Source: a virus. From it: a DNA stretch of 64,000 bases. Made by a program: the position numbers and the translations under genes. The notes below the pieces were generated by a model. That model searched no databases. It was not told where the DNA came from and saw nothing but the letters and a program-made list of their open reading frames with translations. This document shows, piece by piece, positions 22,743 to 50,029 of the stretch; position 1 is the stretch's first letter, and each line of letters opens with the position of its first letter. The stretch spans positions 1 through 64,000 of IMG/VR virus record IMGVR_UViG_3300037502_003876; one strand, written 5' to 3'.

Positions 22743-23900
22743 ATGAGCCTCCTTCTCGCGCTAGAGACCCCGGCCACGCTGGACGGCACGGCCTCCGGGT
22801 CGGTGCCGGTCGGCGCGGTCGCCGTCGGCACGCTGACGCTGGCCGCCGTCGTCGTGGCCGGCGTGGCGGTCGGCGCCACGTCCGCCGGCACGCTGTCCCT
22901 CTCGGGCACGGCGGCCGGGTCGGTCGTCGTCGGCGCCACGTCCGCCGGTGGCCTGTCGCTCGCCGGGGCGGCGGTCGGCGGGGTGCCCGTCGGCGGCGCG
23001 TCGTCCGGCGGGCTGAGCCTGTCCGGCGCGGCGTCCGGCGGCGTGGCCGTGGGCGCCTCCTCCACGGGGACGCTGACGCTGGCCGGCGTCGGGGCGTGCG
23101 GCGTGGCCGTCGGCTGCGCGGCGCCCGCGTCGATGACCCTGGCCGGGGTCGGGGTCGGGGGCGTGCCGGTCGGCGCGTCCGCCCCCGCGGCGATGGCCAT
23201 GGCGGGCACGGCCTCCGGCGCCGTCGTCGTCGGGGCCACCACGCCCGGCACGCTGACGCTCGCCGGGGCGGCCTCCGGGTCGCTCCCGGTCGGGGCCACC
23301 AGCGCCGCCACCCTGAGCCTGACCGGCGTCGCCGTGTGCGCCGTGCCGGTCGGCGCGTCGGCCGCCGGTGACCTCACGCTGGCCGGCGCCTGCACCGGCG
23401 GCGTCCCCGTCGGCTGCGAGGCGACCGGCGCCTACGCGCTCCCGTTCCCGGTGGGCGCCCGCACGGCGGCCACCACCGTCCGCACCCGCACCCTGTCCGC
23501 GGCCGTGGTCACCACGACCGCCACGCTCACCACCCGCACCCGCACGGAGGCACGCGCCGTGTCTGCCACCTACGTCAAGCGCGTCGACGACACCCTGCCC
23601 ACCTTCGGCGCGACGCTCACGCTCAACGGCGCCGCCTACGACCTCAACGACCCGCTCAACGGGGTCGCGTCGGCCGAGCTGCGCTACCGGCTCCGCGGCG
23701 CCTCCACCTGGACCACCCGCGCGGTGACCGTGCACCCGACCACCACCGGGCTCGTGACCTACACCTGGCAGGCCGGGGAGCCGGCCGAGGCGGGCGTGTA
23801 CGAGTACGTCGTCACGCTGACCTACGTGAGCGCGGACCGGCTCTCGTTCCCGAACGGGGACGGGTACGCGACCTTCACCGTGACGGCGGGGTCGTCGTGA
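22743..23900 (+). CDS. Repeat protein: about ten tandem 20-aa Gly/Ala/Val repeats plus an Ig-like C-terminal domain
   Basis: GTLTLAAVVVAGVAVGATSA / GTLSLSGTAAGSVVVGATSA / GGLSLAGAAVGGVPVGGASS and so on, with a 60-nt period. The C-terminal ~130 aa is non-repetitive beta sequence. Confidence 0.65.
   Translation: MSLLLALETPATLDGTASGSVPVGAVAVGTLTLAAVVVAGVAVGATSAGTLSLSGTAAGSVVVGATSAGGLSLAGAAVGGVPVGGASSGGLSLSGAASGGVAVGASSTGTLTLAGVGACGVAVGCAAPASMTLAGVGVGGVPVGASAPAAMAMAGTASGAVVVGATTPGTLTLAGAASGSLPVGATSAATLSLTGVAVCAVPVGASAAGDLTLAGACTGGVPVGCEATGAYALPFPVGARTAATTVRTRTLSAAVVTTTATLTTRTRTEARAVSATYVKRVDDTLPTFGATLTLNGAAYDLNDPLNGVASAELRYRLRGASTWTTRAVTVHPTTTGLVTYTWQAGEPAEAGVYEYVVTLTYVSADRLSFPNGDGYATFTVTAGSS
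22800..23430 (+). repeat. 60-bp tandem repeat array (about 10 copies, in frame) within CDS 22743..23900
   Basis: Periodic ...ggcacgctgac/tc(g/c)ctg(g/t)c(c/g)gg... The antisense ORF track also shows periodic translation. Confidence 0.7.
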
Positions 23901-24986: not shown

Positions 24987-25010
24987 CACGGCGCGCAAGG
25001 TGGCCATTCA

Positions 25011-25078
25011 CAACGATGATCGTTGCAGTTGCCCACGGCCCATGGGCGAGCCGAGAGCAGTTGCAACCATCATGGTTG
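25011..25078. promoter_or_regulatory. Pair of 15-bp palindromes forming a 22-bp imperfect inverted repeat
   Basis: caacgatgatcgttg (25011-25025) and caaccatcatggttg (25064-25078), each abutting gcagttgc (25025-32 and 25057-64). Confidence 0.5.
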
Positions 25079-25310
25079 TAACTGGTCCCGACGCGGAAGC
25101 CGACGACGAGACACCTGCGCCCGGCGAGGCAGATTGACGCCATGCCAAGGACCGTCGCCATCCTCACCCACAAGACCATCCACCTGTGTCATCAAGGCGG
25201 TTGCTGAAGACGGCAAGCCGCACGAGATGCTGGCCGTCCACCTCGACTCGCTGCCGCTCCCGCTGGCGAAGGCGAACTGACCCCTGCGCCCGGTGAGGCA
25301 GAGTGACGCC

Positions 25311-25538
25311 ATGACCACCCGCGCCCAGCGCATCCAGAAGCGCCGCCGTAGCCGTCTCCGGTCCGTCGCCCGGACGCTTCACCGCCGGCTCTACCAGGAC
25401 GACTCCGCCATCGCGCTGCCCATGCTGGCGGACGCGGCGCCCACGTCTCCGCCGGGACACCTGCGTGGTGGCCGGGAGACCAGAGGTACTGACGCCATGC
25501 CTGATGACAAGCCTGCTGTCCTCACGGAGACCCCATGA
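25311..25538 (+). CDS. Hypothetical basic small protein
   Basis: ATG lies 33 nt downstream of a TGACCCC promoter-like motif. ATGA overlap with the next gene. Confidence 0.4.
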   Translation: MTTRAQRIQKRRRSRLRSVARTLHRRLYQDDSAIALPMLADAAPTSPPGHLRGGRETRGTDAMPDDKPAVLTETP

Positions 25539-36539: not shown

Positions 36540-36858
36540 GGGTCCATCCTTCGGGTAGGTCAGCGGCCGTGAACGGTCTCTCTTCCTCCACGGCCCGGGG
36601 GCGGTTGTCCAGCGCAGCGCGACGCGCGCGCACCTCGGCCCGGGCGGCGAGGTAGGCCACGACGTCCGCGCGGCGCGCGAGCCGGAGCTTGCCCTCGTGG
36701 ACCACGGGCCACGCCCCTCGCCGGCACAGGGCCAGGTAGGCGTCCGGCGGCAGACCGACCACGGCCTCCACGGTGCGCTGGTGCACGTACTCGGGCGGCG
36801 GTGCCACCACGGTCAGCGCCTCGCGCGGGATGCTCAGGGTCACGGTGTCGTCCGCCAT
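36352..36858 (-). CDS. xis: Excisionase-like HTH protein whose reading frame runs 187 nt into int
   Basis: ATG at 36858 is 34 nt from the TGACCCC motif. HQRTVEAVVGLPPDAYLALCRRGAWPVVHEGKLRLARRADVVAYL is Xis/HTH_17-like. No stop codon occurs before 36352. Confidence 0.5.
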   Translation of the reverse strand: MADDTVTLSIPREALTVVAPPPEYVHQRTVEAVVGLPPDAYLALCRRGAWPVVHEGKLRLARRADVVAYLAARAEVRARRAALDNRPRAVEEERPFTAADLPEGWTHDPHQDRLRLRAAREVLRPCDAPGRPPQDRPVPGERDHAGPGQDLRRLPRRADRRRSGDPRG

Positions 36859-36959
36859 GCACGCCACCCTGCCGGAGTCCGGCGAGGGGTCAGCGTGGCA
36901 GCGGGCAGCGTGGGCGCATCAGCCGGGAGGGACGGTGGCGCGCACCCGGACCTGACCGC

Positions 36960-37787
36960 TCAGGTGTAGGCGCCCGCGTCGGGCATCCACGCGGCGAGCC
37001 GGTGGTAGAGGCTCGGGTAGTAGTGCCGCAGCCACGCGGCGCCGCCCCATCGGCTGTGGCCGCCGGGCACCCACCACGACTTGCGCAGCCGCCACGGCTC
37101 GCGCCCGTGGGCCAGCGCGAGGCACCGGTAGACCGGCAGCACCGGGATGGTGCGCGTCAGCAGGTAGGCCATCACGTCCAGCCCGGTCCAGTCCGCGAGC
37201 GGCGTGCTGACCCACTGGCCCTCGGCGCGGTACGGGTGCGCCTTGCGGTAGAGCGTGCCGTGGGCGGCGCGGCTCGCCCGGCGCCCGGCGCTCTCTTCCT
37301 GGCGCAGCCCGAGCATCACACCGTCGTAGCGGGCGCCGTGGCGCTCCACCACGTCGTAGAAGCACGCGCGGCTCAGCCCGGCCGCCCGGCTGTGCAGGTC
37401 GTCGCCCGCGCCGAGCGTGGCGGCGTTCTCGGCCATCCACGCCCGCGGGCTCACCGGCGGGCGCAGCACGGTGAGGTCCAGTCCCCAGGCGGTCGCCAGC
37501 CCGGCGAGGTAGTCCTCCTCGCCCGGGTAATCGAGGTCGTCCTTCTCGCTGGCCACGGGGAGCCGGTGCCCGAGGTCCACGCACGCCAGGTGCACGAGCG
37601 CGGTGGAGTCCTTGCCGCCGGACCACATGACGCACCACGACGGCGCCGCCGCCAGCGCGTCCGCGACGCGGCGCCGGGCCAGGTCCACGCGGCGCTGGTG
37701 GTCACGCTGCCGGGCGTGGAGGCGGCAGGTGGCCACCCAGGACCGCCACAGCCGTTCGTCCTCGGGGCGCAGGATGGGCTCGCTCAT
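36960..37787 (-). CDS. PAPS reductase / CysH-like adenine-nucleotide alpha-hydrolase
   Basis: PP-loop VMWSGGKDSTALVHL. ...GVMLGLRQEES..R.. Last gene of the long early operon. Confidence 0.75.
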   Translation of the reverse strand: MSEPILRPEDERLWRSWVATCRLHARQRDHQRRVDLARRRVADALAAAPSWCVMWSGGKDSTALVHLACVDLGHRLPVASEKDDLDYPGEEDYLAGLATAWGLDLTVLRPPVSPRAWMAENAATLGAGDDLHSRAAGLSRACFYDVVERHGARYDGVMLGLRQEESAGRRASRAAHGTLYRKAHPYRAEGQWVSTPLADWTGLDVMAYLLTRTIPVLPVYRCLALAHGREPWRLRKSWWVPGGHSRWGGAAWLRHYYPSLYHRLAAWMPDAGAYT

Positions 37788-37824
37788 GGGCCCACGGTGC
37801 CACGCCCCGGCGACGGGTCCGCCG

Positions 37825-38202
37825 TCAGCCCGCGGCGCGGCGCAGGAACCAGCCGCCGTTGCCGCGCTTCCACCGGGCAAAGCCGGCCCGCTCGTGGGCC
37901 ACCCGCGAGGCCGGGTTGTCGTCCGCGACGAAGGCGACCAGCGGGCGGTCCCGGTAGTGCTCGTACACCGCCGCCAGCAGCCCGCGTCCACGGGCCGCCG
38001 GGTCGATGTAGATCGGGCCGAGGCGCCACCCCCACCGGGTCTCGTGCGGGGTCACGAACCCGACCACGCGGCCGTCCACGACGAGCGCCACGCGGTGGTC
38101 TCCGCGGCGGGCGCGGCCGCGGGTGAACCAGCAGGCGTTGGCGTCGTCGATGAGGTGGGGCGGAATGAGCGTATCCTCCACGAGCGTCACAGGAGATCCC
38201 AT
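37825..38202 (-). CDS. GNAT-family N-acetyltransferase (small)
   Basis: RGRGLLAAVYEHY (acetyl-CoA motif A-like) and ...DNPASRVAHERAGFAR. Overlaps the upstream 3' end by 16 nt. Confidence 0.6.
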   Translation of the reverse strand: MGSPVTLVEDTLIPPHLIDDANACWFTRGRARRGDHRVALVVDGRVVGFVTPHETRWGWRLGPIYIDPAARGRGLLAAVYEHYRDRPLVAFVADDNPASRVAHERAGFARWKRGNGGWFLRRAAG

Positions 38203-39260
38203 AGCCGCTCCTTGAGCCGGTTGCGCTTGGGCTGGGACACCGGCACGGCGTTCTCCCAGTCGTTGAGGAGGATCTGCTTGACCTGCTGGCGGCACGTCTC
38301 CTCGTCCACACGCTGCCCGGCGAAGCGTTGCCGGAACCGGCCCACGCGGTCCAGCGGCGTCGTGTCGAGGAGGTAGTCCCGGTAGGCGCGCCAGGTCGGG
38401 AAGGTGGGCGGCAGGTCGGTCGCCTCGAACACGCCGGACTCGTCGTAGTAGAGCGCGGCGGCGTGGGGGCCGCCGATGCGGCGGACGAGGGCGTCGTAGG
38501 TGTCCGGCTCGAACTCTTGCAGGTCCGCCAGGCACCGGAACGACTTCTCGTGGATGAGGTTCGACACGCGCATCTTGCGGTCGACGGCGCCGTACTTGGC
38601 GAACATCCGGTCGTAGTGCCGGTTGTACGGGAGGGCGTGGTCGGCGATGTACTTCCACACGTCGCCCGTGGTCCAGTCGAACAGCGGGTAGCACCGGAAC
38701 GAGTGCGGGTTGTCGGTGGCGGTGGACCAGCGCCAGCCGTGGCAGCCGGCCCGCTTGGTGACGGAGCGGAACCGGTTGAACGACTCCCGGGACCGCAGCC
38801 CGACCAGGTGCGCGGTGGGCTCCCGGTCCTGCGCCTCGATCCAGGGGAAGAACTCGTAGAACCGGTCCGGGTACGGGCCGTCGACGCGGTGGATGGCGAG
38901 CGGGTGCTTGGGGCGCATCCACGGCTGACCCTCGCCCCACGCGTGGAGCCAGTAGTCCCGGTGACTGGTGGCGTTGGTCATGCGCACCGGCACCTGGTAC
39001 CAGGCCGGGTCGACGCGCGGGTCGGCCATCCACTCGGCGATCACGTCGATGGTGGCCTGGTACTCGGCCTCCTGGTCGAGAAAGAACAGGCCGACGCGCC
39101 GGCCCCGGCGGGCGGCCTCCTCCACGGCGAGGTGCCGCAGCACGGTGGAGTCCTTGCCGCCGCTGACGCTGACGACCACGCGGGGGAACCGGTCGAAGAC
39201 CTGCGCGACGCGCTCCCGGGCGGCGTCCAGCACGGTGCGGTCCGTGTAGGCGACCTTCAC
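38187..39260 (-). CDS. IbrA-like PAPS reductase with a C-terminal DUF3440-type extension
   Basis: GTG at 39260 (VKVAYTDRT...). PP-loop VVSVSGGKDSTVLRHL. Long C-terminal domain ...NLIHEKSFRCLADLQEFEPDTY... as in IbrA-type proteins. Confidence 0.7.
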   Translation of the reverse strand: MKVAYTDRTVLDAARERVAQVFDRFPRVVVSVSGGKDSTVLRHLAVEEAARRGRRVGLFFLDQEAEYQATIDVIAEWMADPRVDPAWYQVPVRMTNATSHRDYWLHAWGEGQPWMRPKHPLAIHRVDGPYPDRFYEFFPWIEAQDREPTAHLVGLRSRESFNRFRSVTKRAGCHGWRWSTATDNPHSFRCYPLFDWTTGDVWKYIADHALPYNRHYDRMFAKYGAVDRKMRVSNLIHEKSFRCLADLQEFEPDTYDALVRRIGGPHAAALYYDESGVFEATDLPPTFPTWRAYRDYLLDTTPLDRVGRFRQRFAGQRVDEETCRQQVKQILLNDWENAVPVSQPKRNRLKERLWDLL

Positions 39261-40042
39261 GCGGCCACCTCCGCGCAGGGCCGGAACGTGTCGGCGATGT
39301 GGTTGGTCAGGTGGGCGAGGCGCCGCAGCCGGTCGGTCAGGTACCGGTCCACGCCGAGGTCGGTGCGCACCACGTCCACGCGCTCCCGGCGCCACAGGTC
39401 GGCCGGGGCCGGGACGGCGCGCCCGGGCACGCGGGCCTGGGCCCACGCGCCGAGGCGGCGCAGCAGCGCGTGCTCGGTGTGCTCCTCCTCGAACGCCCGC
39501 GCCTTCTCCTCGGCGTAGGCGGCGCGCGTCGCGTCGTCCACCGGCAGCACGGTCTCGCGCAGGTCGATACGCCAGGCGTCCGGCGCGGTGATGACGCCGT
39601 GGCCCCAGCGGGCCAGCGCCTCCGGGCGGAAGGGGTCCGCCGGGCGCTTGCCGTCCAGCGCCGCCTTGTGGTGGCTCTCGGCGAGGTAGCTGTAGGTGTA
39701 GCCGTCGTAGGCGGCGCCGACCGCGCCGAAGGCGAACCACGCGCGCCACGGCTCGGCCACGAACAGCCACCGGTCCACCACGATGCGCTGCGCCGTCGTG
39801 GGCCGGAGCAGCACGGCGCCGGCCTCGGTCCGGTTGCCCGGGGTGATCATCTTGCTGAGGCCCACGAGGATGACCGTGCGGTGGGCGCGCAGGTCCGCGG
39901 TGGTGATGGGCCACGCGGCGTGGTGGCACCCCGGGAGGGTGCGCGGGGCCGGGTACCCCTTGGCCGTGACGCACAACGCACCCTCGCCGTGGGGCAGGGT
40001 GAGCGCCGCCGGGTCGCGGTGCAGGTAGATGCGCGGGGTCAT
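39257..40042 (-). CDS. Hypothetical protein (operon member, unknown fold)
   Basis: ATG at 40042 overlaps the upstream stop (ATGA), and its own stop overlaps the IbrA-like start. 261 aa. Confidence 0.5.
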   Translation of the reverse strand: MTPRIYLHRDPAALTLPHGEGALCVTAKGYPAPRTLPGCHHAAWPITTADLRAHRTVILVGLSKMITPGNRTEAGAVLLRPTTAQRIVVDRWLFVAEPWRAWFAFGAVGAAYDGYTYSYLAESHHKAALDGKRPADPFRPEALARWGHGVITAPDAWRIDLRETVLPVDDATRAAYAEEKARAFEEEHTEHALLRRLGAWAQARVPGRAVPAPADLWRRERVDVVRTDLGVDRYLTDRLRRLAHLTNHIADTFRPCAEVAA

Positions 40043-41460
40043 TCGGCCGCCTCCCCGCCCTCGTCGTCGGTGACCTCCCACGCGCGCTCGTACCGCTCGC
40101 CGGCCAGCAGCCGGGCGGCGCCGACCATCTGCCGGAGCCGCAGCGACTCCTCCACGCTCATACCGAGGGCGGCGGCGACGCGCTCGTCGTCCCACCCCTC
40201 GGCCATCATGCCGCGCATCAGGCTGGCCATGAGGTCGACCTGGTGCTTGCCGCGGGCGCGGTTGTGCCGGACCGTGGACGCCATGCGGTCCGCGCGGGAG
40301 GACGCGATCACGCTGGCCGGGAGGTAGGCGCGGCCGAGCCGGGTGGCGGCCGTCGTGCGCCGGTGAAAGCCGTCCACCACGGTCCAGTCCCCGCGCTCCG
40401 GCACCACGACGATGGGCATGGTGATGCCGTCGGCGCGCATCGACTGCTCCAGCAGGTCCAGTTCCGGGGACGCCACACGGTTGGGGTTGTAGTCGTTGGC
40501 GTGGACGCGGGCGGCCGGGAGCAACTGCGGGGACGCCGCCGGGTCGCCGTGGGTCACGTCCGCGACGAGCGCGCCGAGGGCCCGCTGGACGGCGTTGTAG
40601 GCGGCGACGCGCTCCTCGGCCGGGAGGCCGGCCAGCGCCACCAGCGCGGCGGTCACCGCGCCCACGTCCGCCGGGGCCGGGGCCGGCGTGGGGGGCGCGG
40701 GCTGCGCCGACAGCGGAGGCGGTGCGTCCTCGTCCTCGTCGCCCACGGTCAGGCTCAGCTGTTCCTGCGGGGTGGGGCGGGCGGGCGGGGGCAGGAGCGG
40801 GGCGCCGCCGGTGCGGGGGCGGTAGCCCTTCTTCTCGACCCAGGCCGCGGTGCGGGCCAGCCGGGTGGGGTTGAGTTCCGTGCCGGCGTAGTGGCACCCG
40901 AAGATGTGCGCCAGCCGGCTCGTCATGCCGAGCCCCGTGCACGGGTCCACCACGAGCGACCCGCGGGGCAGGCCGAGCCCGGCGAAGGCCGTGTGAGACA
41001 TCGGTTGCCCGTGGAGCCCGCTCGGGTCCGTGGTCAGCGGCCGCGGGCCGTAGTGCACCAGCAGGTTGGGGAGCTTCTGGCTGCTGTAGCGGACCTCGTA
41101 CCGGCGCTGCTCCGGCCAGCGCCACGCGGCGCCCGCGCGGGCCACCGCCTCGAAGAACCACCGGTTGCGGTCGGCGTGGATGCTCATCTCCACGAGGACG
41201 TGCTCCGGGTCGGCGGCGAGGCAGCACGCCACCCACGCATCCATCAGCCGGTCAAAGCCGGCGGCCGGCGGGGTGAGCCGGGCGTGGCGCCGCCAGTACT
41301 TCTCGTTCCCCGGATCCCAGGGCGGATCGCTGTAGACCAGCCAGGCGCGGCGGCCGGCCAGCGTGGCGCGGAAGGTGTCGAGGCCCTGTGGGCTGGTGAG
41401 GTCGGCGCAGGCGAGCGCCTGCGTCAGCCCTTCCGGGCCGTCCCAGATCGTGCTACTCAT
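40039..41460 (-). CDS. Fusion of a beta-class N6/N4 DNA amino-methyltransferase and a ParB/IbrB-like domain
   Basis: Motif IV LVYSDPPWDP precedes motif I VVDPCTGLGMTS. After a Pro/Ala linker comes ...NDYNPNRV...IVVVPERGDWTVVDGFHRR...VRHNRARGKH (ParB/Srx fold, IbrB-type). Confidence 0.7.
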   Translation of the reverse strand: MSSTIWDGPEGLTQALACADLTSPQGLDTFRATLAGRRAWLVYSDPPWDPGNEKYWRRHARLTPPAAGFDRLMDAWVACCLAADPEHVLVEMSIHADRNRWFFEAVARAGAAWRWPEQRRYEVRYSSQKLPNLLVHYGPRPLTTDPSGLHGQPMSHTAFAGLGLPRGSLVVDPCTGLGMTSRLAHIFGCHYAGTELNPTRLARTAAWVEKKGYRPRTGGAPLLPPPARPTPQEQLSLTVGDEDEDAPPPLSAQPAPPTPAPAPADVGAVTAALVALAGLPAEERVAAYNAVQRALGALVADVTHGDPAASPQLLPAARVHANDYNPNRVASPELDLLEQSMRADGITMPIVVVPERGDWTVVDGFHRRTTAATRLGRAYLPASVIASSRADRMASTVRHNRARGKHQVDLMASLMRGMMAEGWDDERVAAALGMSVEESLRLRQMVGAARLLAGERYERAWEVTDDEGGEAAE

Positions 41461-41539
41461 GGTGTGCTACCTCGTTCTAGCGAGTGTGGCCACGGGGTCG
41501 GGACGTTGGAAGCGTCGCCGGCCCCATTGAATTTCCAGC

Positions 41540-42277
41540 CTACGCGCCGCCGCCCGCCGGGTCAAGCGGCGCCGCCGCCAGCGCCTCGCTTGCCCGGTGC
41601 CAGTAGGGCGGCCGCAGGGTGCAGCGCCGGAGCGTGTAGGAGCCGGGGGCGTAGAGCCGGGCGGCCTCGGCGCCGTCCTGCACCGGGAGGCTCCGCTGGG
41701 GGCGCCCCTGCCAGACCAGCGCCCGGTCCTCGGCCGGCTCGATCTCGACGGACGCCACGCTCCCGAGCCCGGCGCGGCCGAGGTACGGGATGCGGGCGAG
41801 GAGGAGCCGGAGCCGGTCCGGGTCGCCGCGCAGGTGGGTGTCGAGGCAGGGGGTGTGGAGGACGGCGCGCGGGATGTTGAGGGACTTGTACGGGCCGCCG
41901 CTGGTGATGACCTTGCCCGGGAGGCGGTAGTGGTCCACGTCGGCCCGCTTGCGCCACAGCCGGACGCCCTCCACCGCGCCGACGTCCGGCGGGGGCGCCG
42001 CCCACGAGCACGCCCACAGCGCGTGGCCGCCGACGGTGACCTGCTCCAGCGGAAGGGGCAGGTGCGGCGGCGGACCGCGGTACCCGGCGAACACGTCCGC
42101 CGGCAGCTCGCCGGTGACGTGGGCCACGGCGAGCCAGGACAGCGACCCGTCCAGGTGCAACCCGTCCGGGCTCCACGCCACCGGCTGGCGGAACCACAGC
42201 CGGACGCGCAGCGGCTCCACGCGCCGGGGCGAGAGGAGGTCCGCCATGCGGTCGAGCCAGGGCCACGCCGGAGCCAT
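41540..42277 (-). CDS. RAMP protein, Cas5/Csf3-like (tentative)
   Basis: N-terminus ...SPDGLHLDGSLSWLAVAH, internal ITSGGPYKSLNIP, Gly-rich loop PYLGRAGLGSVASVEIEP. ATGA-coupled to the upstream gene. Confidence 0.45.
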   Translation of the reverse strand: MAPAWPWLDRMADLLSPRRVEPLRVRLWFRQPVAWSPDGLHLDGSLSWLAVAHVTGELPADVFAGYRGPPPHLPLPLEQVTVGGHALWACSWAAPPPDVGAVEGVRLWRKRADVDHYRLPGKVITSGGPYKSLNIPRAVLHTPCLDTHLRGDPDRLRLLLARIPYLGRAGLGSVASVEIEPAEDRALVWQGRPQRSLPVQDGAEAARLYAPGSYTLRRCTLRPPYWHRASEALAAAPLDPAGGGA

Positions 42278-43830
42278 CAGAACAGGCCCTCCTGGTCCGC
42301 TGGCGGAACGGGCGGCGCGGCCTGGGCGGCGCCCTTCTTCGGGCGGCTGCGCTTCGCCTCGGCCCGGGCGCCCTCGCTGCTGCCGCGGTCGAGCACGGCC
42401 GCCGGCTCGCGGCCCCCAGCCAGCACCCAGGCGCGCATGGCGTCCCGGTGCTGGTCGACGTGGGCGAGGTAGACGGACGGGTCCGGGAGGGGGGCGGCGC
42501 CGGCAGCGGGGCGCCACCCGTCCGTGACGAACGCCCCGAAGGCGGAGGACGTGCGGGCGCCGGTCAGCCCCCCGGCCGCCATCAGCGCGAGCCCGTCGGC
42601 GAGGCACGCGGCCGTGACCGGGGACGGGGCGAACGGGGTGCGCCACTGGACCGTGTGGACGAACTGCGCGCCGCGCACGATGACCTCGGTCTGCATCAGC
42701 ATCTGCACGCCGTCGGCGCCGTCGAGTTCCCGGTGGGCGTGCCGTGTGCTCTGCCGTGTGGTCACCAGCGTGTCCGCCGGGGCGAGCCGGGCGGCGAGGT
42801 CCGCGACGCTCTCGCCGGGCCGGGCCAGGGTCGGGTGCACCAGCCAGGCGTTCTCGCGGCAGACCAGCGTGAGGTCCGCCACGGCGAGGCACCCGGCGGC
42901 CGGGCCCTGCCCGGGGAGCGACCCGGCCACGAGGTCGAGGGGCGGGCAGAGGCGGCGCATGGCGCGGCGCGCGGACGGCACCACGTCGAGCGTGTCGGCG
43001 CCGGCCTCGATGCTGCCGCCGGCGAGGAGCGCGTGGGCGACGCCGGGCGGGATCTCCTCCGGGGCCAGGCCGAGGAGGGCGAGGTAGCGCAGGGCGAGGA
43101 CGTCGCGGAGCTGGCCGCGGAAGGCGTTGCCGGCGACGAACGGCACCAGCGACCGCCGCCCGGTGAGCGGGTCCACGGCGGGCTCGCGGCGCACCTGGTT
43201 GACGTTGCCGCTCTTCGTGTCGGCGCCGTGGGCCAGCGGCGACGCCAGCGTGAGCACGGCCGCGTGGTGGGGCACGGCCACCGCCCGGCCCGGGTCCGGC
43301 AGCACGGCGGGCGAGCCGTGGTGGAGGGCCACCGGCTGCGCGGCGAGGTCCGCCCAGAGTTGCTCGTCCTCGTCCGGGTCGGCGGCGCGCGCCGTGGCGA
43401 AGGTGGCGAACAGGTCCACGCCGTCCGACCGCAGCGCGTCGCGCACGGCGTCCAGGCCCATCGGGGGCGAGGCGAGCAGCCGGTGCCAGTCGATGACCTC
43501 GCGCCGCGCCGGGAAGAAGACCGCCAGCGGCCGCAGCCCGTCCGGCCCGGGCACGCCCATCGGGTCCACGCTGAAGCGGTCGCACAGGTCGCCGAAGAAC
43601 TGCGCCGTGCTGCTGGCGCCGAGCGCGAGCGGCAGCAGGCAGTTCCCGAGTTCCACCGGCAGGTTGCGCAGCCGGTGCTCGCCGATGCGGTCCTTGTCCA
43701 CGGCGCGGACCAGCGAGCGCAGCAGGTAGCCGAGGCACCGCCGGGTGGCGGCCAGGCCGGAGGCGTCGATGCGGACCAGCCGGGTCCACGGGGTCGGGTC
43801 GGTGTGGGTCGTCGGGGTCGGGTCGTTCAT
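42277..43830 (-). CDS. Cas7-family RAMP (Csf2/Csm3-like) with a ~170-aa helical N-terminal extension (possible Cas11-like fusion)
   Basis: LTLASPLAHGADTKSGNVNQVRRE...LVPFVAGNAFRGQLRD; ALLAGGSIE; LDLVAGSL. Start ATG 43830 overlaps the upstream stop. Confidence 0.55.
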   Translation of the reverse strand: MNDPTPTTHTDPTPWTRLVRIDASGLAATRRCLGYLLRSLVRAVDKDRIGEHRLRNLPVELGNCLLPLALGASSTAQFFGDLCDRFSVDPMGVPGPDGLRPLAVFFPARREVIDWHRLLASPPMGLDAVRDALRSDGVDLFATFATARAADPDEDEQLWADLAAQPVALHHGSPAVLPDPGRAVAVPHHAAVLTLASPLAHGADTKSGNVNQVRREPAVDPLTGRRSLVPFVAGNAFRGQLRDVLALRYLALLGLAPEEIPPGVAHALLAGGSIEAGADTLDVVPSARRAMRRLCPPLDLVAGSLPGQGPAAGCLAVADLTLVCRENAWLVHPTLARPGESVADLAARLAPADTLVTTRQSTRHAHRELDGADGVQMLMQTEVIVRGAQFVHTVQWRTPFAPSPVTAACLADGLALMAAGGLTGARTSSAFGAFVTDGWRPAAGAAPLPDPSVYLAHVDQHRDAMRAWVLAGGREPAAVLDRGSSEGARAEAKRSRPKKGAAQAAPPVPPADQEGLF

Positions 43831-44666
43831 ACGGGGAAGATCTCCACGAAGAGGGTCCACCACGGCGCCCGCAGGTGGTCGCGGGTCGTGGCCAGGTCGT
43901 TCATCCACCGGGACCGTAGCCGGAGCGGGCACCGGGTCGGCGCCATGCCGGCCAGCAGCGCCGCGCGGATCTCGCTCGCGTACACGCCGGCCGCCCGCGC
44001 CTCGGCCACGAGCGGCGCCAGCGTGTCCCGGAGCCGGGTCCACCGGGGCACGTCGACGAGGATCGGGTCGCCGTCGTCGACCTGGAGCGGGTAGCGGTCG
44101 GCGTCGAAGGCGACGCGGGCGTAGAGGCCGACGTGCTTGGCTTGCAGGCGGACGAGGGGTTCCTGCCCGGCGGGCACCGCGGCGCCGGGCCACCAGGCGC
44201 GCTGGGCGTGGGACTCGCCGCCCTTGTCGATGCCCATCCACCCCCAGCCGGCGACGAACGGCGGGGCGGGCGGGCGCAGCAGCGCGCCGAGCGGGTCCGG
44301 GCGTCGCCACGGGGAGTCGGCGCCGCCGAGCCCGGGGAGGGGCCGCGTGCCCACGAAGAAGACGCCGCGGCCGGGGGCGGCGAACCACAGCGTCGCCCGC
44401 AGCGGGATCGACCGGCAGACGAACAGGCACGCGGCGCACACCCGGTCGCCGCCGTGGCCCCATGCGCGGTGGGCGTTCAGCACCGTGAGAAAGTTATCGC
44501 TGATGGCGTCCGCCAGCCGCCACGCCGCCGGCGCCCCGCACCCGGCGCACGCCCCGGCCGGCCCCCGCTGCGGGAAGATCGGGCGCCCCACGCTGTCGCG
44601 CACGTCGTCCTCGGGCCACCCGGTCGGGTGCCGGGCCGCCGCCCACACCAGGTGACTAGCGTGCAT
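43827..44666 (-). CDS. Zinc-knuckle protein in the Cas8-like/Csf1 position (tentative)
   Basis: CAGCG...(36 aa)...CAAC four-Cys pattern near the N-terminus. 279 aa. Located between the Cas6-like and Cas7-like genes. Confidence 0.4.
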   Translation of the reverse strand: MHASHLVWAAARHPTGWPEDDVRDSVGRPIFPQRGPAGACAGCGAPAAWRLADAISDNFLTVLNAHRAWGHGGDRVCAACLFVCRSIPLRATLWFAAPGRGVFFVGTRPLPGLGGADSPWRRPDPLGALLRPPAPPFVAGWGWMGIDKGGESHAQRAWWPGAAVPAGQEPLVRLQAKHVGLYARVAFDADRYPLQVDDGDPILVDVPRWTRLRDTLAPLVAEARAAGVYASEIRAALLAGMAPTRCPLRLRSRWMNDLATTRDHLRAPWWTLFVEIFPV

Positions 44667-45666
44667 CGGGCCGCTCCAGGCGCAGGCACGAGACCTCCTC
44701 CAGTTCCACCCGGCCGAAGCCGAGCGACACCCGGCCGCCGAGCCCGATGCGCTCCGCGCACCGGAGCAGCCACAGCCCGAGCGCGTCGGTCTCGACCACG
44801 ACCCGGCCGCGCCACCCGGCGAGGAATCCGCCCGGCTCGTCGCTGAACCGCGAGGACCGCTGGCGCACGGTCTCCGTGTGGTGCTCGACCATCCGCAGGC
44901 GCACGCACCCCTCCACGCCCTGGCGGCGCAGGGACAGCCGCTCGCGGAGCCCGCCGGTCAGCGCGCCCACGAGCGATGGGCCGGTCGGGTGCGGGTAGGT
45001 GGTCTTGTCCTGGACGCTGTTGCGGACGCACACCGGGGTGTGGGCGAGGAGGCGCACCCGGTAGAGGCCGGGCGCGGAGAACTCCGGGGTGTACGGGACC
45101 GAGCACGCGCCGAAGGTGGCGCGCACCTCGCCCCGGCCGAACCAGTGGCCGCGCCAGGACCGGCCCTGCCACTGGAGCGCCAGGGCGCGGTCGCGGTGGA
45201 GCACGGACCATCCGGAGGGGGTCGGGGTGAGCAGGAGCGCGAAGGTGGGGACGAGCGTGTTGTGGTCCTGCCCGAAGGCGCCGGTGAGCAGGGCGTGCAC
45301 GGCGCGCGTGTCCGCCAGCGCCACGCCGCCCGCCGGGCACGGGTCGAGGGCGAGCGGCAGCAGTCCGCCCGGGAGCGTGTCCGGGTAGGAGGCAAGGTCG
45401 TGTTCGGGGACGGGGCCCTGGTAGGGCGGCTTGACGGTGACCAGCGTGGGCACGCCGCCGCGGTGGCCGATGACCATGCGGACGGAGAGCGGCTTGGGGC
45501 TGCGGAGGAGCTGGTCGCCGTCCGGGTAGGAGCGGACGACGTGGGCGCGGCGCAGCAGGTCGTCGAGCTGGTCCCGGGCCTCGGCCTCCGTCAGCCGGGC
45601 GGCGAAGCGGGCGCGGTACTGGTCGACGGCGTGCTGGCTGATGGCGACGCGGAAGAGTTCGGTCAT
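44656..45666 (-). CDS. Cas6-like RAMP protein with an extra ~90-aa N-terminal domain
   Basis: C-terminus GFLAGWRGRVVVETDALGLWLLRCAERIGLGGRVSLGFGRVELE matches the Cas6 GhGxxxxxGhG glycine-rich loop. ATGA-coupled to dcd. Confidence 0.5.
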   Translation of the reverse strand: MTELFRVAISQHAVDQYRARFAARLTEAEARDQLDDLLRRAHVVRSYPDGDQLLRSPKPLSVRMVIGHRGGVPTLVTVKPPYQGPVPEHDLASYPDTLPGGLLPLALDPCPAGGVALADTRAVHALLTGAFGQDHNTLVPTFALLLTPTPSGWSVLHRDRALALQWQGRSWRGHWFGRGEVRATFGACSVPYTPEFSAPGLYRVRLLAHTPVCVRNSVQDKTTYPHPTGPSLVGALTGGLRERLSLRRQGVEGCVRLRMVEHHTETVRQRSSRFSDEPGGFLAGWRGRVVVETDALGLWLLRCAERIGLGGRVSLGFGRVELEEVSCLRLERPDAR

Positions 45667-46220
45667 ACGTGCCTCGTGCGGTGGAGGTGGCTGCGGCTCG
45701 GCTGCGGGCCGTCGGCCTCGTTGGCGTCGGCGTAGTGGCCGCGGCGGTCGTAGGGCTCGACGGCGCCGGTGACCTCGTGGAACACGGCCTGGCAGACGGG
45801 CCACCCGGGCGGGACACGCAGGTGCGTCAGCACGGAGATCTCCAGGGTGATCTGCCCACCGAAGCCCGGCTCGACGTGGCCGGCGGTGCGGTGGACCTCC
45901 AGGCTCTTGCGGCCGGGGCTGCTCTTGCCGTCGACGCGGACGACGTGCGCCGGGGCGTAGATGCGCTCGATGGTGGCACCGAGGTAGAAGCGCCCGGGCT
46001 CCAGCAGGAAGGCGCCGGTGCTGTCCAGCGGCACCGGATCGAAGTGGTACTCACACGGCTCACGCACGTCGAGGATGCTGTAGCCGGGGCCCAGGAGCAG
46101 CAGCCTCGGGTGCAGGTGGAGGGTGACGCCGGCCTGGTCGATCTGGTCGTCGTCGCAGGGGGCGATGGTGATGACGCCACGGCGCATGGCGTCGCGGAGG
46201 GCAGGGCCGGTGAGGATCAT
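45663..46220 (-). CDS. dcd: dCTP deaminase (dUTPase superfamily)
   Basis: VDGKSSPGRKSLEVHRTAGHVEPGFGGQITLEI. Confidence 0.85.
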   Translation of the reverse strand: MILTGPALRDAMRRGVITIAPCDDDQIDQAGVTLHLHPRLLLLGPGYSILDVREPCEYHFDPVPLDSTGAFLLEPGRFYLGATIERIYAPAHVVRVDGKSSPGRKSLEVHRTAGHVEPGFGGQITLEISVLTHLRVPPGWPVCQAVFHEVTGAVEPYDRRGHYADANEADGPQPSRSHLHRTRHV

Positions 46221-49261: not shown

Positions 49262-50029
49262 TCAGCCGGTCAGGTCGAGCGCCATCTGCGTCGGGGCGGC
49301 GGCGTGGCCGAGCTGCGCGGCAGCGAACGCGCGAGCGAACCCGCGCGGGGTGAGGCTGCGGAGGTACTTGGTCCGGGCGCTGGTGCCGCCGAGGGACTGG
49401 AGCCACGAGCCCTGCGACGACGTGGCGACGGGCGGGACGGGGCGCCGCTCCGGCAGACGGAACGCGCCCCACAGGAGCGTGCGCTTGGTGTAGGCGCCGA
49501 CGTCGCGCACGAGGTCCACGTCCTCCGGGGAGAACGGACCGCCGGGGCCGCGGCGCCGGAGCGCGTCGAGGCGGCCGAGGGTGGCGTCGGTCGGGTCGGT
49601 CCAGCCGGCGTACTCCCACGGGTCGAAGGCGAGCGACGGCGGGCCGAGGGACGGCGCGAGGGTGGCGATGCGGCCGACGGGGTTCTCCAGGGCCCAGAAG
49701 TCCGGCCGCAGGAAGTCGACGCACCGGAGCACCTGCCGGACCAGGTGCACGCTGGCCGCGGTGCGGCCGTCGGCGTCCTTGGCCGCCCAGTGCTGCGCCC
49801 CGGACACGGCGAAGTCGGTGCACGGCGGGGCGGCCAGCAGGCCGTCGACGGTATCGAAGCGTTGCAGCACGTCGTCCAGCAGCGACGCGGCGGACCAGGT
49901 GGCGAGGTCGTCGCCGTGCTGAAGGTCCGCCTGGACGACGTTCCACCCGGCCTCCTCGAACGGCTGGCACCAGTGCCCCGACGCGTCGAACAGGCTGAGC
50001 AGCGTGCGGGGTCGCTCCCACACGGTCAC
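49262..50029 (-). CDS. DNA (cytosine-5)-methyltransferase-like protein
   Basis: LSLFDASGH (motif I-like), LLAAPPCTDFAVSG (PC motif IV), FWALENPVG (ENV motif VI). GTG start overlaps the upstream stop. Confidence 0.65.
   Translation of the reverse strand: MTVWERPRTLLSLFDASGHWCQPFEEAGWNVVQADLQHGDDLATWSAASLLDDVLQRFDTVDGLLAAPPCTDFAVSGAQHWAAKDADGRTAASVHLVRQVLRCVDFLRPDFWALENPVGRIATLAPSLGPPSLAFDPWEYAGWTDPTDATLGRLDALRRRGPGGPFSPEDVDLVRDVGAYTKRTLLWGAFRLPERRPVPPVATSSQGSWLQSLGGTSARTKYLRSLTPRGFARAFAAAQLGHAAAPTQMALDLTG

What the first reader, a model, noticed from the sequence alone, without database searches (positions are those of the whole stretch)
36960..41460. IbrA/IbrB-type (PAPS reductase plus ParB) module fused to a DNA amino-methyltransferase, with a GNAT and a second CysH-like enzyme, directly downstream of the Cas-like genes
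Five tightly coupled genes follow the Cas5-like gene after a 79-nt gap. The first, 40039..41460, is a beta-class N6/N4 methyltransferase (DPPW, then DPCTGLG) fused through a Pro/Ala linker to a ParB/Srx domain with IbrB-like motifs (NDYNPN, DGFHRR, HNRARGKH). The second, 39257..40042, is an unknown 261-aa protein. The third, 38187..39260, is a PP-loop PAPS reductase with the long C-terminal extension typical of IbrA. The fourth, 37825..38202, is a 125-aa GNAT. The fifth, 36960..37787, is a second, shorter CysH-like PP-loop enzyme. Pairs of a PAPS-reductase-fold enzyme with a ParB-fold protein parallel DndC/DndB of DNA phosphorothioation, and comparative genomics has proposed that such pairs act on DNA. 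CysH-like genes are also the signature accessory of type IV-B loci. This locus combines a Cas effector, MTase-IbrB, IbrA, a GNAT and CysH in one phage operon that begins with dcd. I hypothesise a nucleic-acid modification pathway targeted by the effector complex, serving self-marking or anti-defence; that is inference, not observation.
Basis: partly seen in the sequence, partly recalled or inferred. Interest (0 to 1): 0.75.

Follow-up and report, generated by a model that had tools for sequence, protein, structure and literature searches.

The report
Phage type IV-B Cas accessory enzyme module
Five real, tightly packed phage genes (a DNA methyltransferase fused to a ParB-like protein, a helicase-like protein without ATPase motifs, two ATP-using PP-loop enzymes and an acetyltransferase) recur beside a nuclease-less type IV-B CRISPR-Cas complex in many unrelated uncultured phages, which offers a testable lead to the unknown function of that Cas type.

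Summary
All five minus-strand genes are real (GC3 0.92-0.99) and every domain call was confirmed, including the N-terminal beta-class DNA amino-methyltransferase (AF2 pLDDT 95; best fold match CcrM, E 4e-9).

The genes upstream are genuine type IV Csf1, Csf2 and Csf3. The 275-aa "second CysH" is the signature type IV-B CysH-like enzyme. In 23 of 23 non-redundant loci it lies next to Csf2/Csf3, including canonical actinobacterial plasmids.

The IbrB-X261-IbrA trio is a distinct subfamily. X261 always sits between IbrB and IbrA, and 12 of 13 loci with enough flank carry Csf genes. The small methyltransferase and the GNAT recur in the same clusters. Gene order is shuffled, GC ranges from 57 to 75%, and the flanking genes are not conserved. 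This argues for a functional link rather than inherited synteny.

X261 folds like a Snf2/SF2 ATPase but has no ATPase motifs. Neither PP-loop enzyme has an invariant cysteine, so Dnd-type phosphorothioation and sulfate reduction are unlikely.

The best reading is an ATP- and SAM-dependent nucleic-acid (probably DNA) modification module working with the Csf complex. The chemistry and the targeting are inferred. I found no published link between IbrA/IbrB and type IV-B.

The parts
40804..41460 (-). N-terminal domain (residues 1-219) of the 473-aa fusion protein. It is a small beta-class N6-adenine/N4-cytosine DNA methyltransferase with no separate target-recognition domain.
   Evidence: DPPW (motif IV) comes before DPCxGxGxTSR (motif I), and both are invariant in 21 homologs. 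18 of 21 members hit PF01555. A family profile hits CcrM in the PDB at 3.5e-4. AF2 pLDDT is 94.9. Foldseek top hits are CcrM (4e-9), M.BceJIV, TTHA0409, M1.HpyAVI, MboIIA, RsrI and PvuII.
40561..40803 (-). Pro/Ala-rich linker (about residues 220-300) joining the methyltransferase domain to the IbrB domain.
   Evidence: Translation. No family or phage match covers this stretch. In L077, L079 and L084 the two domains are adjacent separate genes.
40039..40560 (-). IbrB-type ParB/Srx domain (residues 301-473, plus the stop codon).
   Evidence: phrog_2159 at 6.2e-54. ParB_N at 4.9e-5, below Pfam's cut-off. tblastn finds 226 phage records, including an annotated IbrB at 43% identity. N-x-YNPN, DG-HR and RHN-ARG-H are invariant in 20 sequences.
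39257..40042 (-). X261, a 261-aa protein of a rare family. It always lies between IbrB and IbrA. Its fold resembles Snf2/SF2 ATPase lobes, but it has no Walker A or Walker B motif.
   Evidence: No hit in four family libraries. Only 57 representatives exist among 1.84 billion proteins. AF2 pLDDT is 94.0. Foldseek against the PDB returns SRCAP (6.7e-4), SWR1, Mot1, CSB and ISW1. Against BFVD it returns an uncharacterised 297-aa phage protein (2e-5), then SNF2/SF2 helicases. The invariant residues include no GKT or DExx motif. Synteny is shown.
38187..39260 (-). IbrA-type PP-loop ATP pyrophosphatase: a PAPS-reductase fold plus a DUF3440 C-terminal domain.
   Evidence: PAPS_reduct 2.1e-18 and DUF3440 4.7e-6. 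phrog_2302 at 2.2e-88. 34% identity and E 7e-45 to an annotated IbrA. SGGKDS is invariant and there is no invariant Cys in 18 sequences.
37825..38202 (-). Minimal GNAT acyltransferase of 125 aa. A GTG at 38190 is an alternative start.
   Evidence: Acetyltransf_1 at 5e-7, 30.4 bits against a cut-off of 20.7. Orthologs lie in the same clusters in nine loci. The conserved core is shown.
36960..37787 (-). Type IV-B CysH-like PP-loop enzyme ('CasCysH'), 275 aa.
   Evidence: PAPS_reduct at 6.9e-10. More than 450 homologs. The only plasmid-database matches are Rhodococcus, Gordonia, Mycobacterium and Rhodovastum plasmids, and the two examined are canonical csf loci. It is 29% identical, E 8e-16, to the M. 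intracellulare plasmid protein. It lies next to Csf2/Csf3 in 23 of 23 non-redundant loci.
41540..42247 (-). Csf3 (type IV Cas5). Context: the effector genes upstream of the module.
   Evidence: PADLOC typeIV_Cas5 at 9e-29. The called gene in L002 carries PF27782 Csf3.
42277..43830 (-). Csf2 (type IV Cas7), 517 aa, with an N-terminal extension of about 190 aa.
   Evidence: PADLOC typeIV_Cas7 at 2.1e-37 over residues 192-465. PDB 7jhy Csf2, from a type IV-B complex, at 6.3e-8.
43827..44648 (-). Csf1 (type IV large subunit).
   Evidence: PADLOC typeIV_Cas8/Csf1 at 7.6e-12.
44656..45666 (-). Cas6-like RAMP protein, 336 aa (weak match).
   Evidence: PADLOC Cas6 at 1.6e-5. Pfam CRISPR_Cas6 at 1.5e-3, below the cut-off. 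Orthologs occur in L004, L064, L068, L070 and L073.

Best explanation
The five genes are the accessory half of a phage-borne type IV-B CRISPR-Cas-like locus.

The last gene is the canonical IV-B CysH-like PP-loop ATPase. The other four form a recurrent add-on:
- a small DNA amino-methyltransferase without a target-recognition domain, here fused to IbrB;
- IbrB, a ParB/Srx NTP-binding domain;
- X261, a Snf2-like fold without ATPase motifs;
- IbrA, a PP-loop adenylating enzyme with DUF3440;
- a GNAT.

Shown here: the domain identities, the conserved linkage to Csf genes, the MTase-IbrB 'Rosetta-stone' fusion, and the absence of catalytic cysteines.

Inferred: the proteins act together on nucleic acid, most likely double-stranded DNA. 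The ParB-type domain would engage DNA and enable its partner enzymes, namely the fused methyltransferase and IbrA. IbrA and CasCysH would use ATP to adenylate a group on the substrate so that a nucleophile other than sulfur can replace it. The GNAT would add or process an acyl or aminoacyl group. X261 would act as a nucleic-acid-binding adaptor. The nuclease-less Csf RNA-protein filament would supply targeting or a scaffold. The outcome would be self-marking, silencing or anti-defence for the temperate phage.
For: - Domain identities.
- The CysH-like family lies next to Csf2/Csf3 in 23 of 23 non-redundant loci, including canonical plasmids.
- IbrA/IbrB accompany Csf plus CysH in 14 of those 23 loci.
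- X261 always lies between IbrB and IbrA, and 12 of 13 loci of at least 5 kb carry Csf genes.
- At least eight different gene orders keep the set contiguous. GC ranges from 57 to 75%. The flanking dcd, sigma, RuvC and integrase genes are not conserved.
- The MTase and IbrB are adjacent separate genes in L077, L079 and L084 and are fused here. The MTase also travels with IbrA-IbrB where there is no Csf (L095).
- PHROG and PADLOC methyltransferase families with a ParB N-domain match the IbrB region.
- Precedents for ParB-type partners of DNA-modifying enzymes: a phage ParB activates a T-dioxygenase on dsDNA (PMC13229309); DpdB works with DpdA and DndB with DndC (PMC12839542, PMC10853773).
- The type IV-B literature regards CysH-like as the key to an unknown, probably non-interference function (PMC8175902, bioRxiv 10.1101/780106).
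Against: - No modification has been measured and no protein-protein contact has been tested.
- IbrA/IbrB occur in 223-226 GenBank phages in which tblastn finds no Csf2 or CysH-like gene.
- Csf plus CysH occur without IbrA/IbrB in 9 of 23 loci.
- One X261 locus (L087) has no Csf within 10 kb.
- No CRISPR array or known RNA is present in the window, so nothing shows what would guide the complex.
- The substrate could be RNA rather than DNA.
- The only experimental description of IbrA/IbrB, as carried in the database annotation, is as co-activators of prophage gene expression.
Confidence: 0.55

Rival explanations
1. There are two or three independent modules that merely share an accessory-gene hot spot next to the integrase: Csf plus CysH as one system, and MTase plus IbrA/IbrB (plus GNAT) as a stand-alone phage DNA-modification or anti-restriction unit. 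They would have no physical or functional coupling.
For: - IbrA/IbrB pairs occur without Csf in 223-226 GenBank phages, often next to the terminase.
- MTase-IbrA-IbrB sits next to a terminase without Csf in L095.
- Csf plus CysH occur alone in L007, L014, L064, L069, L073, L074 and on plasmids.
- L087 has IbrB-MT-X261-IbrA without Csf.
Against: - The X261-marked IbrA/IbrB clade is linked to Csf in 12 of 13 informative loci.
- A second IbrA clade (L004, L068, L094) is also linked to Csf.
- The genes stay contiguous and interleaved. CysH-like lies at the far end beyond IbrA in most loci but directly after Csf3 in others. This persists through many rearrangements and across different phage backbones.
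Confidence: 0.25
2. IbrA/IbrB act as transcriptional co-activators of prophage genes, which is the name they carry from E. coli. Here they would regulate the lysogeny region or the Csf operon rather than chemically modify nucleic acid.
For: Database annotation reads 'co-activator of prophage gene expression IbrA/IbrB'. The module lies in the lysogeny-proximal region beside the Xis-like ORF and the integrase. ParB-family proteins can act as DNA-binding regulators; this has been claimed for DndB (PMC10853773).
Against: The PP-loop motif SGGKDS is invariant in IbrA, and the ParB/Srx catalytic-type motifs are invariant in IbrB. This argues for enzymatic activity. Fusion to, and recurrent adjacency with, a DNA methyltransferase and a GNAT points to chemistry on a substrate.
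Confidence: 0.1
3. The two PAPS-reductase-fold genes are auxiliary metabolic genes for assimilatory sulfate reduction, or they form a Dnd-like phosphorothioation system.
For: Pfam PAPS_reduct hits and weak matches to CysH, CysD and DndC models.
Against: Scores lie far below the curated cut-offs: for example 15.6 against 154 bits for PAPS reductase and 27-32 against 290 for DndC. There is no invariant cysteine in either family. No strong DndA, DndD or DndE match appears among the cluster proteins. The CysH-like protein is strictly linked to Csf.
Confidence: 0.03

Closest known systems
Type IV-B CRISPR-Cas loci with the cysH-like accessory gene (actinobacterial plasmids; Mycobacterium sp. JS623 complex, PDB 7jhy)
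   Same: Csf1, Csf2 and Csf3 are present, with a CysH-like PP-loop gene beside them. The window has no CRISPR array, adaptation genes, nuclease or helicase. The locus is carried by a mobile element.
   Different: - There is no separate cas11. Csf2 instead carries a 190-aa N-terminal extension.
- A Cas6-like gene is present.
- CysH-like lies co-directional at the far end of the operon, not divergent from it.
- Five extra enzyme or adaptor domains (MTase, IbrB, X261, IbrA, GNAT) are absent from the two plasmid loci examined.
- The carrier is a myovirus-type temperate phage.
Phage IbrA/IbrB pairs (PAPS-reductase-like plus ParB-like; phrog_2302 and phrog_2159)
   Same: The domain architecture and invariant motifs match: IbrA 34-43% and IbrB 40-45% identity to the E. 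coli, Flavobacterium and Streptococcus phage proteins compared, and IbrB about 31% to the Mycobacterium phage proteins.
   Different: In this locus a third gene (X261) lies between the pair, IbrB is fused to a methyltransferase, and the set is embedded in a Csf locus. In isolated phages the two genes overlap directly and lie by the terminase or in the early region with no Cas genes.
ParB-domain DNA methyltransferase fusions of phages and plasmids (e.g. phrog_498, PADLOC MTase_II PDLC03229)
   Same: A ParB-type domain is combined with an amino-methyltransferase in one polypeptide.
   Different: Those profiles place the ParB domain at the N-terminus of a larger methyltransferase. Here a minimal 215-aa methyltransferase is N-terminal and an IbrB-type ParB/Srx domain is C-terminal. 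No other full-length fusion was found outside this phage lineage.
ParB-type partners of DNA-modifying enzymes: DndB/DndC, DpdB/DpdA, ParB176/5mYOX176
   Same: A ParB-superfamily protein is encoded beside an enzyme that modifies DNA. In two of these cases the ParB-type protein is required for activity on dsDNA (PMC13229309, PMC12839542, PMC10853773).
   Different: The partner enzyme classes differ. IbrA lacks the cysteine dyad and Fe-S ligands of DndC. The activity of the pair in this locus is untested.

Membership tests
Type IV-B CRISPR-Cas | Core effector genes csf1, csf2 (Cas7) and csf3 (Cas5) | tested here: met
   PADLOC 7.6e-12, 2.1e-37 and 9e-29. Csf2 also matches PDB 7jhy Csf2 at 6.3e-8.
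Type IV-B CRISPR-Cas | A cysH-like PP-loop accessory gene adjacent to the effector genes | tested here: met
   The 275-aa protein matches IV-B plasmid CysH-like proteins at 27-34% identity. Its family lies next to Csf2/Csf3 in 23 of 23 loci.
Type IV-B CRISPR-Cas | A separate cas11 small-subunit gene between csf1 and csf2 | tested here: inconclusive
   There is no separate gene. Csf2 has a 190-aa N-terminal extension, but BLASTP against a plasmid cas11-position protein found nothing. The related locus L094 has a separate 176-aa gene at that position.
Type IV-B CRISPR-Cas | No CRISPR array, adaptation module, nuclease or helicase | tested here: met
   The 64-kb window has no array and no Rfam CRISPR repeat. 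No DinG or RecD hit appears among the cluster proteins.
Type IV-B CRISPR-Cas | No Cas6 (rare exceptions are reported) | tested here: not met
   A 336-aa protein with a weak Cas6 C-terminal match is encoded directly upstream of csf1 (1.6e-5 in PADLOC; below Pfam's cut-off).
IbrA/IbrB pair | IbrA: PAPS-reductase PP-loop domain plus a DUF3440 C-terminal extension | tested here: met
   Pfam 2.1e-18 and 4.7e-6, both above their cut-offs. phrog_2302 at 2.2e-88. E 7e-45 to an annotated IbrA.
IbrA/IbrB pair | IbrB: ParB/Srx N-domain with NxYNPN, DGxHR and RHNxARGxH motifs | tested here: met
   phrog_2159 at 6.2e-54. The motifs are invariant in 20 sequences, including the E. coli-phage IbrB. Pfam ParB_N scores 23.7 bits, below the 26.3 cut-off.
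IbrA/IbrB pair | The two genes are directly adjacent or overlapping | tested here: not met
   X261 lies between them here and in all 17 loci of this subfamily. In isolated phages the two genes overlap directly.
IbrA/IbrB pair | Activation of prophage gene expression (the original phenotype) | not testable with these tools
   Known only from annotation.
Beta-class N6-adenine/N4-cytosine DNA methyltransferase (PF01555) | Motif IV (D/S-P-P-Y/F/W) comes before SAM-binding motif I, in a Rossmann fold matching solved beta-class enzymes | tested here: met
   Invariant DPPW, then DPCxGxGxTSR. Foldseek: CcrM 4e-9, M.BceJIV, M1.HpyAVI, MboIIA, RsrI, PvuII. 18 of 21 members hit PF01555, although the window sequence itself does not.
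Beta-class N6-adenine/N4-cytosine DNA methyltransferase (PF01555) | Methyl transfer to DNA at a defined sequence | not testable with these tools
   The 215-aa domain has no evident target-recognition domain. Its specificity is unknown.
Dnd phosphorothioation (DndC/DndB) | DndC cysteine dyad and Fe-S ligands, with DndA, DndD and DndE partners | tested here: not met
   Neither IbrA nor CysH-like has an invariant Cys. DndC model scores are 27-32 bits against a 290-bit cut-off. DndA appears only as a marginal hit (E 0.04).
Assimilatory PAPS/APS reductase CysH | Scores above the equivalog cut-offs, and a conserved C-terminal catalytic cysteine | tested here: not met
   15.6 against 154 bits (275-aa protein) and 37.8 against 154 bits (IbrA) for NF002537. 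There is no invariant Cys.
Snf2/SF2 helicase (for X261) | Two RecA-like lobes with Walker A and Walker B (DExx) motifs | tested here: not met
   The fold similarity is modest (TM 0.35-0.52; E 6.7e-4 and weaker). No GKT or DExx motif is among the conserved residues. No sequence hit to the PDB.
GNAT acyltransferase | Pfam GNAT domain above its cut-off, with an acyl-CoA-binding R/Q-x-x-G-x-G/A motif | tested here: met
   Acetyltransf_1 scores 30.4 bits against a 20.7 cut-off. The sequence RGRGLL is present, and the core is conserved in 10 orthologs.

The most novel reading that the evidence does not exclude
Type IV-B Csf complexes are not interference machines. They are RNA-scaffolded recruiters of a multi-enzyme nucleic-acid hypermodification pathway: a ParB-coupled methyltransferase, two PP-loop adenylating enzymes, a GNAT and a helicase-derived adaptor. 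Phages would use this pathway to write a new, non-sulfur, possibly site-directed mark on DNA or RNA. That would make it a programmable epigenetic writer derived from CRISPR-Cas.
Probability: 0.2. Interest if true: 0.9.

Novelty: new variant of a known kind. Interest (0 to 1): 0.7.

Why it matters
The function of type IV-B CRISPR-Cas systems and of their near-invariant CysH-like partner was still undescribed in the reviews and the 2025 classification I could read. The function of the widespread phage IbrA/IbrB pair is equally obscure.

In uncultured phages the two are repeatedly wired together with a DNA methyltransferase, a GNAT and a degenerate Snf2-like protein. The methyltransferase and IbrB are fused in this phage. 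This turns two unknowns into one testable hypothesis: an ATP- and SAM-dependent nucleic-acid modification pathway coupled to a Cas ribonucleoprotein.

It also supplies a compact operon of about 8.7 kb (44656..36960 on the minus strand) that could be synthesised and assayed. If the Csf complex directs the enzymes, this would be a natural RNA-guided modification system.

Tried and rejected
- Megablast of 12 kb of the locus against 50,697 GenBank phages found no match. tblastn with Csf2 and with the CysH-like protein against the same set also found nothing, so no cultured relative is available.
- Search for a CRISPR array or known RNA in the window (TRF, direct repeats, a k-mer chain scan, Rfam, tRNA) found none.
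- The 79-nt gap after csf3 folds no better than shuffled sequence (z -1.09).
- The promoter and terminator scan found nothing convincing inside the cluster. The one terminator-like site, inside the IbrA coding sequence, is taken as chance.
- Test of the Csf2 N-terminal extension as a fused Cas11: BLASTP against a plasmid cas11-position protein was negative. This stays open.
- Test of whether the 290-300-aa proteins upstream of IbrA in L004, L068 and L094 are X261 homologs: hhalign gave E 0.03 and phmmer gave no hit. Not established.
- A sequence profile of X261 against the PDB gave only chance-level L23 matches.
- The hits in Nocardia and other genomes (about 27% identity, no Csf nearby) were set aside as probable housekeeping CysH.
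- My iterated HMMs for IbrA and CysH-like merged, because both are PP-loop proteins. I separated the two families by length, position and single-pass phmmer scores.

Full report

The window is 74% GC. It has the layout of a temperate myovirus-type phage: tail sheath and baseplate genes on the plus strand, and an integrase plus an Xis-like ORF just downstream of the finding.

Their third-position GC is 0.92-0.99. They are packed as described: a 79-nt gap after the upstream gene, three start/stop overlaps, and one 37-nt gap. No convincing promoter or terminator lies inside the cluster. The same five genes, including the 475-aa fusion, are called in three independent metagenome assemblies of a 95-99% identical phage, so the fusion is not an assembly artefact.

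**2. What each gene is**

- *36960-37787 (275 aa):* a PAPS-reductase-fold PP-loop protein (Pfam 6.9e-10).
- *37825-38202 (125 aa):* a minimal GNAT, above Pfam's cut-off.
- *38187-39260 (357 aa):* IbrA-type. It has PAPS_reduct plus DUF3440 and matches phrog_2302 at 2.2e-88. It is 34% identical (E 7e-45) to an annotated E. coli-phage IbrA.
- *40039-41460, C-terminal third:* IbrB-type ParB/Srx. It matches phrog_2159 at 6.2e-54. The NxYNPN, DGxHR and RHNxARGxH motifs are invariant from E. coli, Streptococcus and Mycobacterium phages to this one.
- *40039-41460, N-terminal 219 residues:* these hit no family directly. Their 21 homologs are mostly stand-alone proteins of about 215 aa.
  - DPPW followed by DPCxGxGxTSR is invariant.
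  - 18 of 21 homologs hit PF01555.
  - The AF2 model (pLDDT 94.9) matches only beta-class N6A/N4C DNA methyltransferases: CcrM at 4e-9, then M.BceJIV, M1.HpyAVI, MboIIA, RsrI and PvuII.
The enzyme is minimal, with no evident target-recognition domain.
- *39257-40042 (X261):* no hit in four family libraries.
  - The family is rare, with 57 representatives among 1.84 billion proteins.
  - Its confident model (pLDDT 94.0) most resembles Snf2/SF2 ATPase lobes in both the PDB and a viral structure library. The scores are modest: E 6.7e-4 and weaker, TM 0.35-0.52.
  - None of the conserved residues forms a Walker A or Walker B motif.
  - I read it as a degenerate, non-ATPase helicase-like adaptor. 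This is fold-level evidence only.

**3. The neighbours**

The four genes upstream are a weak Cas6-like protein, Csf1, Csf2 and Csf3 (PADLOC 1.6e-5, 7.6e-12, 2.1e-37 and 9e-29). Csf2 also matches the Csf2 chain of the solved type IV-B complex 7jhy. The 64-kb window has no CRISPR array, no Rfam RNA and no tRNA.

**4. Which PP-loop enzyme is the type IV-B 'CysH'?**

It is the 275-aa protein.
- Its only matches in PLSDB are 24 plasmids, 23 of them from Rhodococcus, Gordonia and Mycobacterium. The two I opened are textbook IV-B loci, with csf1-cas11-csf2-csf3 divergent from a cysH-like gene. Identity to the M. intracellulare protein is 29%, E 8e-16.
- With profile searches over every locus fetched, a protein of this family lies next to Csf2 and/or Csf3 in 23 of 23 non-redundant loci. 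These range from 31% to 75% GC.
- It has no match in 50,697 GenBank phages.

**5. Is the rest of the module linked to Csf beyond this genome?**

Yes.
- IbrA with IbrB lies in the same cluster in 14 of those 23 loci.
- X261 was found in 17 non-redundant loci and sits immediately between IbrB and IbrA wherever the flanking sequence is held. Of the 13 loci with at least 5 kb of sequence, 12 carry Csf2 and/or Csf3.
- The small methyltransferase recurs in ten loci and the GNAT in nine, including one Csf-CysH locus that has no IbrA/IbrB (L070).
- Gene order is shuffled. CysH-like follows Csf3 directly in L066, L072, L007 and L014, and lies beyond IbrA in the window, L065, L071, L077, L085 and L086. 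The pair is ordered IbrA-IbrB in L004, L068 and L094 but IbrB-X261-IbrA elsewhere. Throughout, the set stays contiguous.
- The window's flanking genes (dcd, sigma factor, RuvC, integrase) are absent from the other loci. In the sister phage dcd is only 61% identical, against 95-99% for the cluster. dcd is therefore not part of the unit.
- In a neighbour-joining tree, the X261-linked IbrA sequences form one clade and the L004/L068 type forms another. Both are Csf-linked.
- This pattern is what selection for linkage would produce. Inherited synteny would not.

**6. Limits of the link**

- IbrA/IbrB pairs occur in 223-226 GenBank phages: Flavobacterium, Mycobacterium, Streptococcus, Arthrobacter, E. 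coli and others.
- In the four I inspected the two genes overlap directly, and they lie by the terminase or in the early region. tblastn finds no Csf2 in any GenBank phage.
- The methyltransferase also travels with IbrA-IbrB beside a terminase where there is no Csf (L095).
- One X261 locus (L087) has no Csf within 10 kb. It does have two CRISPR mini-arrays directly upstream of IbrB, and one repeat reaches Rfam's CRISPR-DR9 threshold.

The system is therefore modular. MTase plus IbrA/IbrB is one unit and Csf plus CysH-like is another. A particular IbrA/IbrB subfamily, marked by X261, is nearly always joined to the second unit.

**7. How it most likely works**

*Shown here:*
- the domain identities;
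- the linkage to Csf;
- the adjacency of separate MTase and IbrB genes in L077, L079 and L084 and their fusion in this phage, which is a Rosetta-stone argument for physical cooperation;
- the invariant PP-loop SGGKDS in both IbrA and CysH-like, with no invariant cysteine in either.

*From the literature:*
- PP-loop enzymes adenylate a substrate oxygen so that a nucleophile can replace it (PMC8175902, PMC10853773).
- ParB-family proteins can be obligatory partners of DNA-modifying enzymes. A phage ParB is needed for a T-dioxygenase to act on dsDNA (PMC13229309), and DpdB is needed for DpdA (PMC12839542).
- Type IV-B complexes lack nucleases. The one solved complex bound heterogeneous RNA (PMC8175902).

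*Inferred:*
- The IbrB domain brings the fused methyltransferase and IbrA onto DNA.
- IbrA and CasCysH carry out ATP-dependent, non-sulfur activation steps.
- The GNAT adds or processes an acyl or aminoacyl group.
- X261 binds nucleic acid.
- The Csf filament supplies targeting or a scaffold.

Dnd-type phosphorothioation and sulfate assimilation are unlikely. The catalytic cysteines are missing, scores lie far below the curated cut-offs, and no DndA, DndD or DndE partner was found.

**8. Comparison with what is known, and novelty**

The locus meets the core definition of type IV-B: Csf1-3, a CysH-like gene, and no array or nuclease. It departs in three ways. It has a Cas6-like gene. It has no separate cas11. 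It carries five extra domains that are absent from the two canonical plasmid loci examined.

Type IV-B in prophages, a few lytic phages and an archaeal virus is already published (bioRxiv 10.1101/780106, bioRxiv 10.1101/270033, PMC10848311). An N6-methyltransferase neighbour appears in a figure legend of the 2018 survey (10.1101/270033).

I found no paper that holds IV-B, CysH and ParB together. None of the papers returned by my searches on IbrA/IbrB, DUF3440, Csf2 and ParB, judged by title and abstract, links IbrA/IbrB to type IV systems. Subscription journals are not covered by this search.

I therefore rate this a new variant of a known kind. Interest is fairly high because it gives a concrete experimental handle on two long-standing unknowns.

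Noticed in passing
L087:7423-7962 (IMGVR_UViG_3300033156_000333): Two CRISPR mini-arrays lie directly upstream of IbrB-MT-MT2-X261-IbrA, in the one X261 locus that has no Csf genes within 10 kb. One has six 36-nt repeats spaced 71-73 nt. The other has two 37-nt hairpin repeats that reach Rfam's CRISPR-DR9 gathering score. PADLOC found no Cas protein among ten neighbouring ORFs.
   Followed up: partly
L065:18226-18892: Ten degenerate repeats of about 37 nt, spaced 53-77 nt, lie in a non-coding stretch about 7.4 kb downstream of the CysH-like gene. This may be a decayed CRISPR array.
   Followed up: partly
window 44656-45666 (-): A 336-aa protein with a weak Cas6 C-terminal match is encoded directly upstream of csf1. 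Type IV-B loci normally lack Cas6, and this window has no array for it to process. Orthologs occur in L004, L064, L068, L070 and L073.
   Followed up: partly
window 43261-43830 (-): Csf2 carries an N-terminal extension of about 190 aa that is conserved in the phage clade (tblastn alignments start at residues 14-35). No separate cas11 gene exists here, so this may be a Cas11-Csf2 fusion. BLASTP against a plasmid cas11-position protein was negative. The related locus L094 has a separate 176-aa gene at that position.
   Followed up: partly
window 45663-46220 (-) versus L002:1565-2116: There is a mosaic boundary at dcd. The sister phage's dcd is only 61% identical, while every gene from the Cas6-like gene to the integrase is 95-99% identical. 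The upstream sigma-factor gene of the window has no tblastn match there.
   Followed up: partly
window 49262-50029 (-): A second, unrelated DNA methyltransferase (phrog_757, 4.3e-46) is encoded about 8 kb upstream on the same strand.
   Followed up: no
window 58802-60067 (+): A second ParB-like protein (phrog_4715, 1.5e-21), separate from the IbrB domain, lies next to a DnaD-like loader at 61408-62868.
   Followed up: no
window 36560-36862 (-): A 100-aa ORF lies between the CysH-like gene and the integrase. From its position it may be an excisionase. It was not run against any family library.
   Followed up: no
window 25110-25144 and 25279-25313 (+): Two 35-nt copies, 91% identical and 169 nt apart, each ending in ATG, lie in the 24987-25534 intergenic region of the structural arm.
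   Followed up: no
L072:4806-5651 (= L088:3042-3887): A third PP-loop/PAPS-reductase-like gene (281 aa) lies about 2.5 kb upstream of Csf2 in this locus, in addition to CysH-like and IbrA.
   Followed up: no
L004:7423-8295, L094:5642-6544, L068 about 7420-8250: In the IbrA-IbrB-ordered loci, a 290-300-aa protein occupies the slot immediately upstream of IbrA. It shares a short DPF...AAYxxEK stretch with X261 (hhalign E 0.03) but has no significant sequence match to it. It may be a distant analogue.
   Followed up: partly
window 9410-9668 and 22822-23288 (+): In-frame tandem repeats lie inside structural-arm ORFs: 105 nt x 2.5 copies and 60 nt x about 5 copies. These are probably repetitive tail or fibre proteins.
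   Followed up: no
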